Assembly (NCBI GenBank): GCA_002472275.1
Contig: DKRQ01000019.1
Coordinates: forward strand, 140,279-204,278
Source: Bacillales bacterium UBA7278
GTDB lineage: Bacteria > Bacillota_I > Bacilli_A > RFN20 > CAG-826
Length of the DNA: 64,000 nt
Direction: 5' to 3'
The notes under the pieces are model-generated. The model was not told where the DNA came from and made no database searches. It saw only the letters and a program-made list of their open reading frames with translations. The translations under genes and the position numbers were made by a program. How positions within the stretch are numbered: position 1 is the first letter of the stretch; every line of letters begins with the position of its first letter. Below are positions 50,697-60,400 of the stretch, in pieces.

Positions 50697-51644
50697 ATGT
50701 CACTATTCACTGATAAGGTCGACTTAGGGATGGCGGATTCCCGCGAACACTTGATTGAGAAGTATGTTTTCGACGTCAAGAAAGGAACCATCCAAATCCA
50801 CGTCAAACCCGGCTATGAAGCCATCATCAACGGCTACGACAAAATCGGGCCGAACCAAACCAACACCTACAACAAGAAGACGATCGGCACCACGCTCACT
50901 GCTTTCGTCTACCAGAAGGGCAGCATCGCCAAGCCGATCATCGTTCCCTTCTTCGCCGGTCAGCACACCATTTCGCTAGACGCCCATAAGACCGCCAAGG
51001 CCACGTTCGCCCTTGTCGGCACGGCCAAGATCGAGATCGATGACTACAAGGCGCTTGCTCGTTATTTCGACAGCACCGTGACCTATGCCGATGTCGAGAA
51101 AGAACTCCACGAGAACTTCAAGGACGCGTTCTCAATCCACATGACCGCAGCCGCGAAAACCTATATCTCTTCTTCCTCCACCGATGTCTCGATCCACTCG
51201 GATCTCAAAAACATCGCCAAGGCCGGTATCCAGGGCTCTTCCCTCCAGAACACCCTCATCGACATGGGCATGTCCCTTATGTCTTCCGGCATCAGCCTGA
51301 GGCTCAACCCGGTCGGCAACTCCGAGGAGATCATCGCCGCCATCAACGCCAAATTCAACGAAGCCGCCTTCGATGAATTCGACGAGGCCAAAGCCGATAA
51401 GCAGCGTCAAAGGGAAATCGAAGACAAGAAGTTGGACTACCAGCACGAAATCGACGTCATCAACGCTCAGAACACCGATACCCAGAACCGCAACAACAGC
51501 TATGCCTACTCGGGCAATGTCCCAAAGTATCCTCACGGCGCTCCCGCCGCCCCCGATACCGGCAAGAGGTTCTGCTCGCATTGCGGCAGGGAACTCGCCC
51601 CCCGCGACGAATATTGCCCGTCCTGTGGCACCAAGACCCGCTAA
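50697..51644 (+). CDS. SPFH/band-7-like (YdjI-type) protein with a C-terminal zinc ribbon
   Basis: MSLFTDK N-terminus. Beta-rich then helical SPFH-like layout. Coiled segment KADKQRQREIEDKKLDYQHEID. C-terminal CSHCG-x9-CPSCG. Internal acidic AAFDEFDE motif. Confidence 0.45.
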   Translation: MSLFTDKVDLGMADSREHLIEKYVFDVKKGTIQIHVKPGYEAIINGYDKIGPNQTNTYNKKTIGTTLTAFVYQKGSIAKPIIVPFFAGQHTISLDAHKTAKATFALVGTAKIEIDDYKALARYFDSTVTYADVEKELHENFKDAFSIHMTAAAKTYISSSSTDVSIHSDLKNIAKAGIQGSSLQNTLIDMGMSLMSSGISLRLNPVGNSEEIIAAINAKFNEAAFDEFDEAKADKQRQREIEDKKLDYQHEIDVINAQNTDTQNRNNSYAYSGNVPKYPHGAPAAPDTGKRFCSHCGRELAPRDEYCPSCGTKTR

Positions 51645-51669
51645 TCACCACCGATAAGGAGAATCAACA

Positions 51670-52635
51670 ATGGGACTTTTCAAAAGCAAAGAGCAGAAGG
51701 CCGCTGAGGCCGCTGCAAAGCAGAGGCAGCAGCAGCAAGCCGCCATCAACAAGGGTCTACAAGACAGCATGACCCCGAAAGACGATGTTACCCCCTACGC
51801 CAACGAAAAAAAGCGCAGGCAGGAAGAGCAAGCCGCGGCCCAGCACCAAGAAGCCAACCGCGACGAGATCGACGAAATCCTCAGGAACCTCTCCAGGGAA
51901 ATCTCGCTGAGCTTCCCCGACGCCGAAGACGACGCCCAGGAAATCCGCGACCTTTCCGTCAGGGTCAGGAGGATGAACCTTGGCAAGAACCAAGGTGCCA
52001 CCGACGCCATCATGACCTTCATCCGCGCCAAAGCGCAGGACATGATCGTCAAGGCCCACGCCGGCAACTACGCCGCCATCATCGGCTTCTTCGAAGAGCT
52101 TAGGAGCCTCATTAACGACGCGGAGAATCCACAAAAGGCCAAACTTATGGCCGATCCCGCCTACGTCAAGCGTCGTATCCGCGTCGCCGAGCTTTCCGCC
52201 CTCAAGGAAGACCTCCAAGGCCAGAAACAGGCTTTGTATCGCCAACGCGACAAACTCAAATCCAGGATGGAAGCCGGCCTCATTGACCAACGTGAAGCCG
52301 TCTCCAGGGTCGGCGACATCCGCGCTCAAGTCGAAGACTTGGAACGTTCCCTCCAGAACGCCCAGAGCGATTTGAGGGATGCCCAGACCGTCCTCACCGA
52401 GCAGGAGACCCAGATCCGCAACTCCGCGAAAGCCAAGGCCGAGGACATCAACGACTACACCGCGATCGCCGACCAGAAGGCCGACGCCGAGGCGCTTTCC
52501 TCCGAGAAAAACGACGTCATGTCGCAGATCCGTCAGAACAGCACCGATGTTTCGATGGATGACATGCATATGCATGCCAGCACCGGCAAGACCGAACTCA
52601 GCCAAGAACAGGTCGACAACGCCTTCGACTTCTAA
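51670..52635 (+). CDS. Long coiled-coil protein, possible PspA/ESCRT-III-superfamily member or adaptor
   Basis: MGLFKSKEQK N-terminus. Heptad-rich helices over 321 aa. C-terminal acidic peptide ELSQEQVDNAFDF. Confidence 0.35.
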   Translation: MGLFKSKEQKAAEAAAKQRQQQQAAINKGLQDSMTPKDDVTPYANEKKRRQEEQAAAQHQEANRDEIDEILRNLSREISLSFPDAEDDAQEIRDLSVRVRRMNLGKNQGATDAIMTFIRAKAQDMIVKAHAGNYAAIIGFFEELRSLINDAENPQKAKLMADPAYVKRRIRVAELSALKEDLQGQKQALYRQRDKLKSRMEAGLIDQREAVSRVGDIRAQVEDLERSLQNAQSDLRDAQTVLTEQETQIRNSAKAKAEDINDYTAIADQKADAEALSSEKNDVMSQIRQNSTDVSMDDMHMHASTGKTELSQEQVDNAFDF

Positions 52636-52649
52636 GGAGAGAGACGAAC

Positions 52650-53228
52650 ATGTTTGGTAAGAAACCCGCTCAGATGCCTAACCGCACCGACATCAACCTC
52701 AAGTTTTCGTCGAGCCTGCGCCAGTTGAAGCGCTCCATCGACCAGCTCGACCAAAAGATCGAGGCCGAAGTGGCCGCCGCGATTTCCTATAGGAAATCCG
52801 GCAACATCGACGAGGAACATCGTTCCCTCGCCAAGATCCAACGCTACCTCGCCCAGAAGATCCAAAAGGAACGTTTCTATGACAGCGTCGAAGGCGTCAA
52901 AGCCAAAATCGACGATATCCTCGACAAAGTCGAGGTTTCCCGCAACCTCTCCGAGACCTTGGGCAGCATCGGCCAACTCGTCGATTCCAAGGAACTCAAA
53001 TCCATCGTCGGCGAACTCGACACGTTCAACAAGAACTTCGCCAAGACCAACAACATGATGGACGCCTTCATGGGCTCGATGGACGCAACCGTCGGCGAAA
53101 TGAGCGTCGATCCTAGCCTCACCGCCTCCGTTCAGGCGATGGTCGGCGAAAGAATGAAGGGGTACGAGACTCGCATTGAGGAGCAGGCCGAGGCCGACCT
53201 CGATGAGAGCGCGTTCAATTTTCAATAA
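52650..53228 (+). CDS. ESCRT-III (Snf7/CHMP)-like protein 1
   Basis: 192 aa. MFGKKP N-terminus. Basic alpha1-alpha2 hairpin (LRQLKRSIDQLDQKIEAEVAAAISYRKSGNIDEEHRSLAKIQRYLAQKIQ). LSETLGSIGQLV...IVGELDTFNKNF...MMDAFMGSMD parallels CHMP alpha3-alpha5. Acidic tail EEQAEADLDESAFNFQ. Confidence 0.6.
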   Translation: MFGKKPAQMPNRTDINLKFSSSLRQLKRSIDQLDQKIEAEVAAAISYRKSGNIDEEHRSLAKIQRYLAQKIQKERFYDSVEGVKAKIDDILDKVEVSRNLSETLGSIGQLVDSKELKSIVGELDTFNKNFAKTNNMMDAFMGSMDATVGEMSVDPSLTASVQAMVGERMKGYETRIEEQAEADLDESAFNFQ

Positions 53229-58889: not shown

Positions 58890-58900
58890 ACAAGGAATGA

Positions 58901-58930
58901 ACCGGTAGGGGCTCCCTATCGGTTTTTCTT
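58901..58930 (+). terminator. Rho-independent terminator after the protease gene
   Basis: accggtagg / loop ggctc / cctatcggt, followed by ttttctt. Confidence 0.7.
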
Positions 58931-58963
58931 AATGTTCGCGTGCAAACGCGATAAAGTAATTCC

Positions 58964-60400
58964 ATGCCGAAAACCAAAGTACCGCAGAACGTGAAGCCCG
59001 AAGGCTATTGGAGGGCCATCGGGGCTTTTTCCATCGATTTGGCCCTAACGATCGTGGCCATCGTCCTCCTCTATGTCTCGATTGGCAACACCCTTATTTA
59101 TAAGGCCGTCGACTATGCGGGCGACATCGCCAAGATGGACGCCTTCATGGAAGGGACCGCCCTCGTCAATATCAAGGCCCCCAAATCCTATGGCTATTTG
59201 GACTTCCAGGACAAGGAAGGGGAAGTGCCGGCCTATCAAAAGTACATCGATCGCGTTTGGAACTATTTCACCGTCTTATGCGCGGACCCCAATTCGGGAT
59301 ATGACATCAACCCGCCGATGACCTCCTTCGATAACGAACACGACTTCGTGCCCTTCACCGGCGAGAAGACCGTCGAAAACATCGGCAAATGGGTCTATGA
59401 CCATTACTTTACCAGCAATCTTTGGAAGGCCCCTGTGAAAGAGGGCACCCAGGATCCCGACTATTCGAAGGCCCCGATTCCCGCCGAAGACCCGACGGGA
59501 CGCGAGGCCAAACTGAAGACCGCGATGTATGACGTTTCCACGACCACCCCAAAAGGAACCTACGTCTTCACCGTGAGCCACATCTTGGCCCAGAACAAAT
59601 ACGCCGCTTTGGCCAAAACCGAAAGGCTCCATGGCTGGTTCGCCTGGATGCCTTGGTTCGCGGTGGCCCCCGTCATCTTCTTCTTCGTCATCCCCGTGGC
59701 GAGCCGTAACGGCAGGACCATCGGCAAAAGGATCGTCGGAACAGCGGTATTAGGAAGCGACGGCTATACCGCCAAGAAGCTCAACATCGTCCTTCACTAT
59801 TTCTTCCCGACCATCTATTGGTTCATTCTGATGTTGCCTTATCAAGGCATAACCTTTCCCCTCTTCGTCTTATTGCTCCTAGTGGAATACATGACTTTGG
59901 TCATGACCCACAACCATCAATCCATCCACGACAAGATCGCCCAGACGATCGTAGTCAACGCCAAGCAATCCACGTGGTTCGCGAGTAGGGAGGATGAAGA
60001 GGAATATCTCAAGAGCCACCCCAATTCCTACGTCGCAAAGCTTCGCAGGGACGAGGAATGGGAATCCAATCCCCGTTACGCGGCGACCACCGCGGCCATC
60101 GCCGCCCAGGACGCCATCGTCGACTCCACGACGATCGGCAGGGCCAGGAAGGAAGCCGAGGCCATCTCCTCCTTCGACGAATTCGAGCGCAAATCCGATG
60201 AGGATTACGCGAGAAGGGAATCCGAGGCAAAGGCTAACTCCGAGCTTCAGGAAGAGCCCGAAGAGGAACTATCCGAGCAGCAGAAGCAAGAACTCGCCGA
60301 CCTCGCCAAGATGGAAGGCCTAAGCGAAGAAGAAGGCTCCGCCGCCCTCGAGGAAGAAGAACCCGAGGGCGAGGAAGACGACTTCGCCGACAAGAAGTAA
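58964..60400 (+). CDS. RDD-family membrane protein with a long acidic C-terminal tail
   Basis: YWRAIGAFSIDLALTIV, RNGRTIGKRIVG, SIHDKIAQTIVV (R-D-D pattern). C-terminal E/D-rich ~130 aa ending EEDDFADKK. Confidence 0.65.
   Translation: MPKTKVPQNVKPEGYWRAIGAFSIDLALTIVAIVLLYVSIGNTLIYKAVDYAGDIAKMDAFMEGTALVNIKAPKSYGYLDFQDKEGEVPAYQKYIDRVWNYFTVLCADPNSGYDINPPMTSFDNEHDFVPFTGEKTVENIGKWVYDHYFTSNLWKAPVKEGTQDPDYSKAPIPAEDPTGREAKLKTAMYDVSTTTPKGTYVFTVSHILAQNKYAALAKTERLHGWFAWMPWFAVAPVIFFFVIPVASRNGRTIGKRIVGTAVLGSDGYTAKKLNIVLHYFFPTIYWFILMLPYQGITFPLFVLLLLVEYMTLVMTHNHQSIHDKIAQTIVVNAKQSTWFASREDEEEYLKSHPNSYVAKLRRDEEWESNPRYAATTAAIAAQDAIVDSTTIGRARKEAEAISSFDEFERKSDEDYARRESEAKANSELQEEPEEELSEQQKQELADLAKMEGLSEEEGSAALEEEEPEGEEDDFADKK

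What the first reader, a model, noticed from the sequence alone, without database searches (positions are those of the whole stretch)
51363..60397. Recurrent acidic A-F-(D/N)-x-F peptide at or near the C-termini of cluster proteins (candidate MIT-interacting motif)
Short, similar acidic/aromatic peptides occur in six of the nine proteins. They are SPFH protein NEAAFDEFDEA (internal, 51363-51386), coiled-coil protein QVDNAFDF* (52609-52632), ESCRT-III-like 1 DLDESAFNFQ* (to 53225) and ATPase 3 SSSSAFDDFLSGIDD (57814-57873, after the PAPE tail). ESCRT-III-like 2 has GDFFSELDI* (to 55111) and the RDD protein has EEDDFADKK* (to 60397). In eukaryotes and archaea, ESCRT-III subunits recruit Vps4 through short C-terminal MIM peptides that bind the MIT domain. 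A shared terminal peptide across structurally unrelated proteins of one operon is the signature of a common docking site, here plausibly the three MIT-like domains.
Basis: partly seen in the sequence, partly recalled or inferred. Interest (0 to 1): 0.65.

Follow-up and report, generated by a model that had tools for sequence, protein, structure and literature searches.

The report
Conserved acidic-aromatic tails in bacterial ESCRT-like cluster
Several proteins of a gut-bacterial gene cluster that resembles the archaeal and eukaryotic ESCRT-III/Vps4 membrane-cutting machine end in a short, conserved acidic "Phe-Phe" peptide, probably the handle by which the cluster's three ATPases grip them, although binding has not been tested.

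Summary
The peptides are real, lie within a few codons of the stated coordinates, and exceed chance: 4 of 9 proteins match A-F-[DN]-x(0-1)-F, against a mean of 0.12 in 20,000 shuffles. Across about 17 orthologous clusters (uncultured Erysipelotrichaceae/Bacilli, Acholeplasmatales, Clostridia), the conserved core is acidic-Φ-F-x(1-2)-Φ within about 10 residues of the C-terminus.

- **ESCRT-III-like 2:** its tail ([DES]-[DS]-[FLIV]-F-x-x-[LI]-[DN]) is universal, even at 22% overall identity, and sits behind a non-conserved linker.
- **ESCRT-III-like 1 and the coiled-coil protein:** their tails vary but co-vary within genomes.
- **ATPase 3:** about half of its orthologues carry DDFFxxΦ.
- **Weak cases:** the "SPFH" instance lies in a conserved internal helix whose first Phe is not conserved. 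The RDD protein has no orthologue in any other cluster.

The parts
54527..55114 (+). P5, Snf7/ESCRT-III-like protein 2 (195 aa)
   Evidence: Pfam Snf7 E 7.9e-5, 22.8 bits, below the 27.3 cut-off. 9 of 13 orthologues hit Snf7, best E 1e-7.
55085..55111 (+). P5 C-terminal tail GDFFSELDI*, the best-conserved instance. Family consensus: [DES]-[DS]-[FLIV]-F-x-x-[LI]-[DN]-x(0-2)-COOH.
   Evidence: Present in all 22 distinct family members, including ones only 22-24% identical overall. Column conservation is D 0.83, F 0.74, F 1.00 against 0.06-0.30 in the preceding linker. Codons vary synonymously.
52650..53228 (+). P3, Snf7/ESCRT-III-like protein 1 (192 aa)
   Evidence: Pfam Snf7 E 5.6e-5. 17 of 26 orthologues hit Snf7, best E 2e-6. 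The family profile's best PDB hit is CHMP1B, E 0.04.
53196..53225 (+). P3 C-terminal tail DLDESAFNFQ*. Family consensus: acidic-[AS/LVM]-F-x-[LF]-x-COOH.
   Evidence: F189 is at least 90% conserved in 26 homologues. Replaced by ..NW* in the L013/L021/L023 clade and by VSLKIK* in L004.
51670..52635 (+). P2, coiled-coil protein (321 aa) with a conserved N-terminal MGLF(G)xxKK
   Evidence: No Pfam family. 14 orthologues aligned. Weak profile similarity to P3: hhalign probability 26%, E 7e-4.
52609..52632 (+). P2 C-terminal tail QVDNAFDF*
   Evidence: Orthologue tails: AFDF*, AMFDF*, AMFNF*, DDFFKM*, DDLF[KR]M*, DNFLANL*, DALLNSI*, ESMEI*. It co-varies with the P3 tail of the same genome (permutation P 0.001).
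57808..57852 (+). P7 (ATPase 3) near-C-terminal peptide SSSSAFDDFLSGIDD, following a PAPE-rich linker
   Evidence: DDFFxx[LIF], AFDDFF or F[DE][DE][IV] tails occur in about half of 37 ATPase 3 orthologues and are absent from the rest. The motif is also found at the end of ATPase 3-LRR_5 fusions P0162 and P0164. AF2 leaves it disordered, pLDDT <50.
51357..51389 (+). P1 internal peptide NEAAFDEFDEA; probably not part of the motif set
   Evidence: It lies in a uniformly conserved helix-like stretch. Orthologues read A-[LIM]-[DE]-[ES]-F-[DE]-[DE], so the first F is not conserved.
60371..60397 (+). P9 (RDD protein) tail EEDDFADKK*; cannot be assessed and may be compositional
   Evidence: Sits in a long E-rich low-complexity C-terminus. 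No P9 orthologue was found in any of 25 related loci.
53228..53455 (+). N-domain of ATPase 1 (P4 residues 1-76), MIT-like by weak sequence evidence
   Evidence: 3 of 9 orthologues hit Pfam MIT PF04212, best E 0.0033, the top family by number of members. Weak TPR (STI1/SGT) hits in the PDB.
55124..55348 (+). N-domain of ATPase 2 (P6 residues 1-75), three-helix MIT-like bundle
56305..56529 (+). N-domain of ATPase 3 (P7 residues 1-75), three-helix bundle
   Evidence: In the AF2 full-length model, residues 1-80 have pLDDT 86-97, with helices 4-17, 20-39 and 44-63. hhalign to the ATPase 1 N-domain gives probability 52%.
53228..54505 (+). P4, AAA ATPase 1 (425 aa)
   Evidence: Pfam AAA E 4e-31. Pore loop lacks the aromatic residue (K-S-S-H-V-G), and this holds in orthologues.
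55124..56308 (+). P6, AAA ATPase 2 (394 aa), the only one with a canonical K-Y-V-G pore loop
   Evidence: Pfam AAA E 5e-34. Pore loop conserved in 17 orthologues. Best PDB sequence hits are AFG2, VAT and p97 D2. Its start lies 1-16 nt from the P5 stop in most loci.
56305..57876 (+). P7, AAA ATPase 3 (523 aa)
   Evidence: Pfam AAA E 2e-31. Foldseek best hits are p97/Cdc48 D2, 31-34% identity. Pore loop is Q-Q-G-L-G with no aromatic residue.

Best explanation
The window carries a chromosomal bacterial gene cluster with this composition: a Zn-ribbon protein, a coiled-coil protein, two Snf7/ESCRT-III-like proteins, three AAA ATPases each with an N-terminal MIT-like three-helix domain, and a trypsin-like protease. 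It is built on the same plan as archaeal and eukaryotic ESCRT-III/Vps4 modules. The short acidic-aromatic peptides at the C-termini of ESCRT-III-like 2 (P5), ESCRT-III-like 1 (P3), the coiled-coil protein (P2) and, in many lineages, ATPase 3 are short linear docking motifs. They would be functional equivalents of MIT-interacting motifs, recruiting the MIT-like N-domains of the ATPases to the polymer-forming proteins.

Two sub-types exist. D-Φ-F-x-x-[LI]-[DN] occurs in P5 and ATPase 3. Φ-F-x-Φ occurs in P2 and P3. From gene adjacency and apparent translational coupling, I infer that the P5 tail addresses ATPase 2, the only subunit with a canonical aromatic pore loop and hence the likely translocase. 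The co-varying P2 and P3 tails would share a second receptor, most simply ATPase 1.

Shown here: the motifs exist, exceed chance, are conserved as C-terminal islands at protein level, and co-occur with MIT-like domains. Inferred: that they bind those domains, the partner assignments, and that binding leads to ATP-driven remodelling of the Snf7-like polymers.
Against: No binding test of any kind was possible. The tails match no known MIM consensus: there is no L-x-x-R-L-x-x-L helix and no proline-rich MIM2. AF2 of full-length ATPase 3, which holds both an MIT-like domain and a tail, left the tail disordered with pLDDT <50. The N-domains do not reach Pfam MIT thresholds, and their profiles find no MIT in the PDB by sequence. 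Three-helix bundles are common, and the Foldseek E-values were 0.5-1. The AAA modules are closest to Cdc48/p97 D2 and AFG2, not Vps4. The ATPase 3 tail is dispensable in about half of the lineages. The co-variation test is not corrected for phylogeny.
Confidence: 0.5

Rival explanations
1. The tails are real docking motifs, but their receptor is not the MIT-like domains. One option is that they fold back on the basic helical hairpin of the Snf7-like proteins, giving auto-inhibition or polymer contacts as in ESCRT-III alpha5/alpha6. Another is that they bind a different cluster component: the conserved N-domain of the Zn-ribbon protein P1, the trypsin-like protease P8, or the LRR/Ig-like neighbours.
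For: Conservation and terminal position show function but not the partner. AF2 did not dock the ATPase 3 tail on its own N-domain. P1, P2 and P8 are as constant in the cluster as the ATPases. The ATPase 3 tail is dispensable in about half of the lineages.
Against: The motif also sits on ATPases and on an ATPase-LRR fusion, which argues against a purely intramolecular ESCRT-III auto-inhibition role. MIT-like domains are the only known peptide-binding modules detected in the cluster. P5-ATPase 2 and P3-ATPase 1 adjacency is invariant.
Confidence: 0.27
2. The tails are C-terminal engagement or degron-like tags. They would be read directly by the AAA pore (as with ssrA-type tags) or by the trypsin-like protease, marking the proteins for unfolding or cleavage rather than for MIT docking.
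For: The motif has a strict near-terminal position. A protease is a constant cluster member. The AAA modules are Cdc48-D2-like unfoldases.
Against: Only ATPase 2 has an aromatic pore loop. The protease has no PDZ or other detected peptide-reading domain. A tag on the ATPase itself is hard to rationalise. This explanation leaves the conserved MIT-like domains without a ligand.
Confidence: 0.1
3. The recurrence is a by-product of composition. Acidic, disordered C-termini occasionally hold a Phe, and the reader's eye joined unrelated peptides.
For: This probably holds for two of the six instances. P9's DDF sits in an E-rich low-complexity tail of a protein with no orthologue in other clusters. 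P1's peptide is an internal conserved helix whose first Phe is not conserved. The strict pattern fits only 2 of the 6.
Against: None of 20,000 shuffles reaches the observed count, including shuffles confined to the last 40 residues. The P5 and P3 tails are conserved islands across distant orthologues.
Confidence: 0.05

Closest known systems
MIT-interacting motifs (MIM1-MIM7 binding modes) in ESCRT-III C-terminal tails that recruit Vps4/CdvC and other MIT proteins (PMC9477494, PMC10936438)
   Same: A short peptide sits at the extreme C-terminus of Snf7-family proteins behind a variable linker. An ATPase with an N-terminal three-helix MIT-like domain, a flexible linker and one AAA cassette is encoded next to it. 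Several paralogous tails and several MIT paralogues suggest a binding code.
   Different: The consensus (acidic-Φ-F-x1-2-Φ, typically DDFFxxL) matches no described MIM. The motif also occurs on a coiled-coil protein and on the ATPases themselves. The host is a bacterium. Binding has not been shown.
Archaeal 'Meth_adaptin' ESCRT system of Methanobacteriales (Makarova et al. 2024, PMC10936438)
   Same: It combines Vps4-like MIT ATPase and ESCRT-III genes with a protein carrying coiled-coil and Zn-ribbon domains, plus Ig-like proteins and a transporter component. The bacterial cluster has a protein ending in a Zn ribbon (P1), Ig-like Big_3 and LRR neighbours, and an ABC ATPase.
   Different: There are three ATPases instead of one, with Cdc48-D2-like AAA modules. 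A trypsin-like protease is present. No adaptin-appendage or GOLD domains were detected. The SPFH nature of P1 is not supported by sequence searches. That paper states ESCRT components other than ESCRT-III are not identifiable in bacteria.
Bacterial PspA/Vipp1 (ESCRT-III superfamily) with PspF, and bacterial Snf7/VPS4-like occurrences noted by the PSP survey (PMC11237479, PMC7619361)
   Same: ESCRT-III-superfamily proteins in bacteria are paired with AAA+ ATPases.
   Different: P3 and P5 hit Snf7, not PspA_IM30. PspF is a sigma-54 activator without an MIT domain. In the reported transfers of VPS4-like ATPases to bacteria, snf7 had been displaced by another gene. The 2025 review states that a Vps4-like ATPase appears absent from bacteria.
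Other acidic C-terminal or FF-type hub peptides: FFAT (EFFDAxE)-VAP MSP domain, EEVD-TPR clamp, SSB C-terminal DDDIPF (recalled from memory, a lead and not a test)
   Same: Two phenylalanines in an acidic tract (P5: D-D-F-F-S-E-L-D), or an acidic peptide that must be C-terminal and is shared by several partners. The N-domain profiles gave weak hits to the EEVD-binding TPRs of STI1 and SGT.
   Different: No MSP domain or full three-repeat TPR clamp was detected in any cluster protein. The N-domains have only three helices.

Membership tests
MIT-interacting motif (MIM) | Lies in the variable C-terminal tail of an ESCRT-III/Snf7-family protein, after the helical core | tested here: met
   The P3 and P5 tails follow the Snf7-matching region (residues 17-144 and 18-166). 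In P5 the tail also follows a non-conserved linker.
MIT-interacting motif (MIM) | Sequence matches a described MIM type, e.g. MIM1 (D/E)xxLxxRLxxL(K/R) or proline-rich MIM2 | tested here: not met
   By inspection of all tails, the consensus is acidic-Φ-F-x1-2-Φ. The known consensus sequences are recalled from the literature (PMC9477494, PMC10936438).
MIT-interacting motif (MIM) | Binds an MIT domain | not testable with these tools
   No multimer or docking tool was available. The only proxy, AF2 of full-length P7, left the tail at pLDDT <50.
MIT-interacting motif (MIM) | Co-occurs with a protein carrying an MIT domain | tested here: met
   Three MIT-like ATPases are present in every cluster examined.
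MIT domain | Three-helix bundle of about 70-80 residues, structurally superposable on solved MIT domains | tested here: met
MIT domain | Reaches the Pfam MIT (PF04212) threshold | tested here: not met
   None of the window proteins hits MIT at E <= 0.1. 3 of 9 ATPase 1 orthologues hit it sub-threshold, best E 0.0033. There are no hits for the ATPase 2 or ATPase 3 N-domains, and no MIT is found by profile search of the PDB.
Vps4/CdvC (ESCRT-IV) ATPase | MIT domain, flexible linker and a single AAA cassette, encoded next to ESCRT-III genes | tested here: met
   gene order.
Vps4/CdvC (ESCRT-IV) ATPase | AAA module closest to Vps4 and the meiotic clade | tested here: not met
   The best PDB sequence hits of P6 are AFG2, VAT and p97 D2, with no Vps4 in the top 60. 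Foldseek best hits of P7 are p97/Cdc48 D2.
Vps4/CdvC (ESCRT-IV) ATPase | Vps4 C-terminal helix or beta-domain | tested here: inconclusive
   Vps4_C gives E 0.033 for P7. PF09336 is precomputed for a few ATPase 3 orthologues. The beta-domain was not examined.
ESCRT-III / Snf7 family | Matches the Snf7 profile over the helical core | tested here: inconclusive
   The window proteins score 23.3 and 22.8 bits, below the 27.3 cut-off. Snf7 is still the top family for 17 of 26 P3 orthologues and 9 of 13 P5 orthologues, best E 2e-6 and 1e-7. CHMP1B is the top PDB hit for the P3 profile, E 0.04. One source names a homologue 'Snf7 family protein'. The fold was not modelled.
   Only Zn-ribbon families are found in 14 orthologues, and there is no SPFH protein in the PDB profile search. 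The fold was not modelled.

The most novel reading that the evidence does not exclude
The FF-type tails are a previously undescribed class of MIT-interacting motif that wires a three-ATPase ESCRT-like machine in bacteria. Distinct tail sub-types (P5 type versus P2/P3 type) would address distinct MIT paralogues. If so, the MIT-MIM recruitment principle, thought to be confined to archaea and eukaryotes, also operates in Bacillota. Tails and ATPase modules would be shuffled between subunits while the MIT-like adaptors stay constant.
Probability: 0.35. Interest if true: 0.8.

Novelty: new variant of a known kind. Interest (0 to 1): 0.62.

Why it matters
Two recent papers state that ESCRT components beyond ESCRT-III (PMC10936438) and a Vps4-like ATPase (PMC7619361) are not found in bacteria. 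This cluster has Snf7-like proteins, MIT-like ATPases and conserved C-terminal tails in uncultured gut and rumen Bacillota. It therefore offers a compact bacterial system for testing whether tail-to-MIT recruitment is older or more mobile than assumed. The tails give precise handles for that test: 8-10 residue peptides with two invariant or near-invariant positions that can be mutated. The co-varying and invariant sub-types also suggest which ATPase reads which partner.

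Tried and rejected
- **Sequence searches for MIT.** Profiles of the three N-domains against PDB sequences gave no MIT hit, only weak TPR, FliS-like or designed-protein hits. Pfam scans of the ATPase 2 and ATPase 3 N-domains gave nothing.
- **Paralogy of the N-domains.** hhalign between them was weak: probabilities 20%, 0.5% and 52%.
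- **Structure prediction with locus-derived alignments.** I used substrings of database proteins instead.
- **Cis docking.** The AF2 full-length ATPase 3 model left the tail disordered, which is uninformative or mildly negative. Docking a peptide on a domain was not possible with these tools.
- **Defence-system reading.** PADLOC gave only generic AAA (IetA, TRIP13) and protease hits, so I did not pursue it.
- **Phage origin.** There is no relative in IMG/VR, and the window is chromosomal, with rpoB, rpoC, rpsL, fusA and tuf.
- **P1 as SPFH.** Not supported.
- **P2 as a third ESCRT-III paralogue.** Only weak similarity: hhalign 26% to P3 and 0.6% to P5. P3 against P5 gave 3.7%.
- **Collection scans.** They yielded few extra loci: 4 genomes and 9 metagenome contigs. 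The P5 family is tiny, with 13 hits among 1.84 billion representatives.
- **P9.** No orthologue was found, so its tail could not be assessed.

Full report
**The locus**

The + strand between 50.7 and 60.4 kb holds nine genes. Pfam gives the following.

| Protein | Coordinates | Pfam result |
|---|---|---|
| P1 | 50697-51644 | C-terminal Zn ribbon only |
| P2 | 51670-52635 | no family; coiled-coil-like |
| P3 | 52650-53228 | Snf7, E 5.6e-5 |
| P4 | 53228-54505 | AAA |
| P5 | 54527-55114 | Snf7, E 7.9e-5 |
| P6 | 55124-56308 | AAA |
| P7 | 56305-57876 | AAA |
| P8 | 57942-58889 | two Zn ribbons plus Trypsin_2 |
| P9 | 58964-60400 | RDD |

The window is bacterial chromosome, with rpoB, rpoC, rpsL, rpsG, fusA and tuf at 16.7-39.3 kb. 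Identical or near-identical proteins come from Erysipelotrichaceae and "Bacilli bacterium" MAGs of gut and rumen.

**Check of the observation**

All six peptides exist. Four coordinates are exact and two are off by a few codons. The strict pattern A-F-(D/N)-x-F fits only P1 and P7. P2 (AFDF*) and P3 (AFNFQ*) lack the spacer residue, and P5 and P9 are only loosely alike.

The relaxed pattern AF[DN]x(0-1)F is found in 4 of 9 proteins, and in 3 of them within the last 25 residues.
- 20,000 composition-preserving shuffles gave a mean of 0.12 proteins with a hit, a maximum of 2, and none reached 4.
- Shuffling only the last 40 residues gave a mean of 0.006.
- In 137 non-cluster ORFs (53.6 kaa) from the window and related loci, the pattern occurs 3 times and never in a tail.

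The recurrence is therefore not chance, although the pattern was defined after the fact.

**Conservation in orthologous clusters**

I collected 25 related loci, which contain about 17 distinct clusters, together with database homologues. The seven-gene core P1-P2-P3-AAA1-P5-AAA2-AAA3 is constant. It occurs in Bacilli, including Acholeplasmatales-named MAGs, and in Clostridia.

- **P5.** The tail is universal: [DES]-[DS]-[FLIV]-F-x-x-[LI]-[DN] followed by 0-2 residues and the stop. It holds even in representatives only 22-24% identical overall, such as P0275 (SFFDTINGN*) and P0277 (DFFDAINNT*).
  - Column conservation is 0.83, 0.74 and 1.00 for D-F-F, against 0.06-0.30 in the 17 preceding linker residues.
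  - Codons vary synonymously, so selection acts on the protein.
- **P3.** [AS or LVM]-F-x-[LF]-x* is present in most clusters, and F189 is at least 90% conserved in 26 homologues. The L013/L021/L023 clade ends in ..NW* and L004 ends in VSLKIK*.
- **P2.** The tail varies (AFDF*, AMFDF*, AMFNF*, DDFFKM*, DDLF[KR]M*, DNFLANL*, DALLNSI*, ESMEI*) and is acidic-hydrophobic in most clusters.
- **P7.** About half of 37 orthologues carry DDFFxx[LIF], AFDDFF or F[DE][DE][IV] near the end, and the rest carry nothing comparable.
- **P1.** The peptide sits in a uniformly conserved stretch. Orthologues read A-[LIM]-[DE]-[ES]-F-[DE]-[DE], so the first Phe is not conserved. This looks like a structural helix, not a linear motif.
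- **P9.** It has no orthologue in any other locus, and its tail is E-rich low complexity.

The conserved entity is thus acidic-Φ-F-x(1-2)-Φ near the C-terminus. It has a P5/ATPase 3 sub-type (Φ-F-x-x-Φ) and a P2/P3 sub-type (Φ-F-x-Φ).

**Further signs that the tails are functional modules**

- The motif remains at the very end when ATPase 3 is fused to an LRR_5 domain (P0162 and P0164..DDFFKDLPPLD*).
- In Clostridia-type clusters the third ATPase has a non-orthologous RuvB-like module. Two of the four examined (L014 and L015) still end in DFFDDLDL.. or DDFFSALKDDE*.
- In the clade where P3 has lost the motif, a CbbX/SpoVK-like ATPase 1 ends in EDLNFLD* or ADDLVF*.
- P2 and P3 tails resemble each other more within a genome than between genomes. 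The summed score is 182, against 141.9 +/- 11.9 on permutation (P 0.001). P2-P5 and P3-P5 show no such effect (P 0.43 and 0.39). This test is not corrected for phylogeny.
- P3 always directly precedes ATPase 1 and P5 always directly precedes ATPase 2. The P5 stop and the ATPase 2 start are 1-16 nt apart in most loci.

**Are the ATPase N-domains MIT-like?**

Sequence evidence alone is weak. No window protein hits Pfam MIT, and N-domain profiles find only weak TPR-type matches in the PDB. However, 3 of 9 ATPase 1 orthologues hit Pfam MIT (best E 0.0033), which makes it the top family by number of members.

Structure evidence is clearer.
- An AF2 model of ATPase 2 residues 1-88, built from 29 sequences, has pLDDT 87.9 and three helices.
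- MITD1, calpain-7, chitin synthase, yeast Vps4, VPS4A, katanin, ULK3 and spartin MIT domains are also among the top 16.
- Foldseek gives its highest TM-scores (0.86-0.88 on the target) to MIT domains, though at non-significant E-values.
- The full-length ATPase 3 model has a three-helix N-domain with pLDDT 86-97, followed by a disordered linker.

The AAA modules themselves are nearest to Cdc48/p97 D2 and AFG2, not to Vps4. These ATPases are therefore Vps4-like in architecture, not in orthology.

**Interpretation**

The best reading is that the tails are MIM-like docking peptides for the MIT-like domains. ESCRT-III tails carry MIMs, and MIT three-helix bundles bind them in at least seven modes (PMC9477494). 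The architecture here is the same.

Binding is wholly inferred, however. The tails fit no described MIM type, and AF2 did not dock ATPase 3's own tail. The alternatives cannot be excluded: another receptor in the cluster, cis auto-inhibition of the Snf7-like proteins, or a pore or protease tag. Pure chance is excluded for P5 and P3, but it remains plausible for P9 and for the "AF" part of P1.

**Comparison with what is known**

- The 2024 ESCRT survey states that ESCRT homologues are found in archaea "but not in bacteria". It describes an archaeal Meth_adaptin system with an SPFH-coiled-coil-Zn-ribbon protein (PMC10936438).
- A 2025 review says a Vps4-like ATPase "appears absent in bacteria" (PMC7619361).
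- The PSP survey notes transfers of VPS4-like ATPases to bacteria in which snf7 was displaced by another gene (PMC11237479).
- I found no paper in the held library that describes this cluster or its tails.
- PADLOC gave only generic hits, and no relative is present on viral contigs.

I rate the finding as a new variant of a known kind: a MIM-like motif with a new consensus in a bacterial ESCRT-like system.

**Verdict**

The recurrence is real and non-random, the consensus needs revising, and two of the six instances should be dropped.
MIT-like domains and conserved tails are shown, but binding is not.
- Interest is 0.62.

Noticed in passing
window 55124-56308 (P6), 53228-54505 (P4), 56305-57876 (P7): Only ATPase 2 keeps the canonical aromatic pore loop K-Y-V-G-E, in all 17 orthologues. 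ATPase 1 has K-S-S-H-V-G, where the aromatic position is H/K/A/P in orthologues, and lacks the RPGRF arginine-finger box. ATPase 3 has Q-Q-G-L-G-N-T-E with no aromatic residue. This suggests one translocating and two regulatory subunits, or a hetero-oligomer.
   Followed up: partly
L014 11236-12804, L015 11197-12678, L016 11125-12582, L025 7081-8436; L013 8230-9375, L021 5430-6587: ATPase modules are swapped while the N-terminal three-helix domains are kept. The third ATPase of Clostridia-type clusters is RuvB-like (RuvB_N, AAA_lid_4, WHD_RuvB). ATPase 1 of the L013/L021 clade is CbbX/SpoVK-like (AAA_lid_6).
   Followed up: partly
window 51670-51700 (P2 N-terminus), 52650-52670 (P3), 50697-50715 (P1): P2 starts MGLF(G)xxKK in nearly all of its 14 orthologues, P3 starts MFGKK, and P1 starts MSLFTD. 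From memory, these resemble the N-terminal membrane-anchoring motifs of ESCRT-III proteins such as CHMP6 (MGNLFGRKK).
   Followed up: partly
Only Zn-ribbon families are found in 14 orthologues, and there is no SPFH protein in a PDB profile search. The fold remains untested. An SPFH-coiled-coil-Zn-ribbon protein does occur in archaeal Meth_adaptin ESCRT loci (PMC10936438).
   Followed up: partly
window 45449-50481 (- strand); L005 467-7172; L015 12703-19726: A second conserved gene set travels with the cluster in both Bacilli and Clostridia. It comprises a 621-1033 aa Ig-like (Big_3) protein, a roughly 300 aa lipoprotein, roughly 400 aa and 280-320 aa proteins, an ABC ATPase, and in the Bacilli a divergently transcribed Zn-ribbon protein (49486-50481). 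LRR_5 proteins are often inserted in or beside the cluster.
   Followed up: no
L014 1-4681 and 17032-21236: In one Clostridia contig the cluster is flanked by genes typical of conflict systems: TIR_2-Sel1, PRTase/TRSP/StiP/PELOTA, WYL and Cas9. In L013 it is followed by an SNF2-family helicase whose C-terminus (YFDDAMFF*) resembles the tail motif.
   Followed up: no
window 55349-55360 (P6 residues 76-79): An invariant or near-invariant N-P-F (G-x-N-P-F) directly follows helix 3 of the ATPase 2 N-domain in 29 diverse orthologues.
   Followed up: no
window 60498-61349: The gene downstream of the RDD protein ends in GQFIDELLS*. Its homologue near the L013 cluster, annotated HTH_3/DUF3990, ends in NYIEEILK*. 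This is a conserved aromatic-I-[DE]-E-[LI]-L tail that superficially resembles the P5 motif. It is probably part of its own domain.
   Followed up: no
window 52632-53225 (- strand): An antisense ORF of 197 aa is longer than P3 on the + strand and would be picked by a longest-ORF rule. Homology shows the + strand P3 is the gene.
   Followed up: yes
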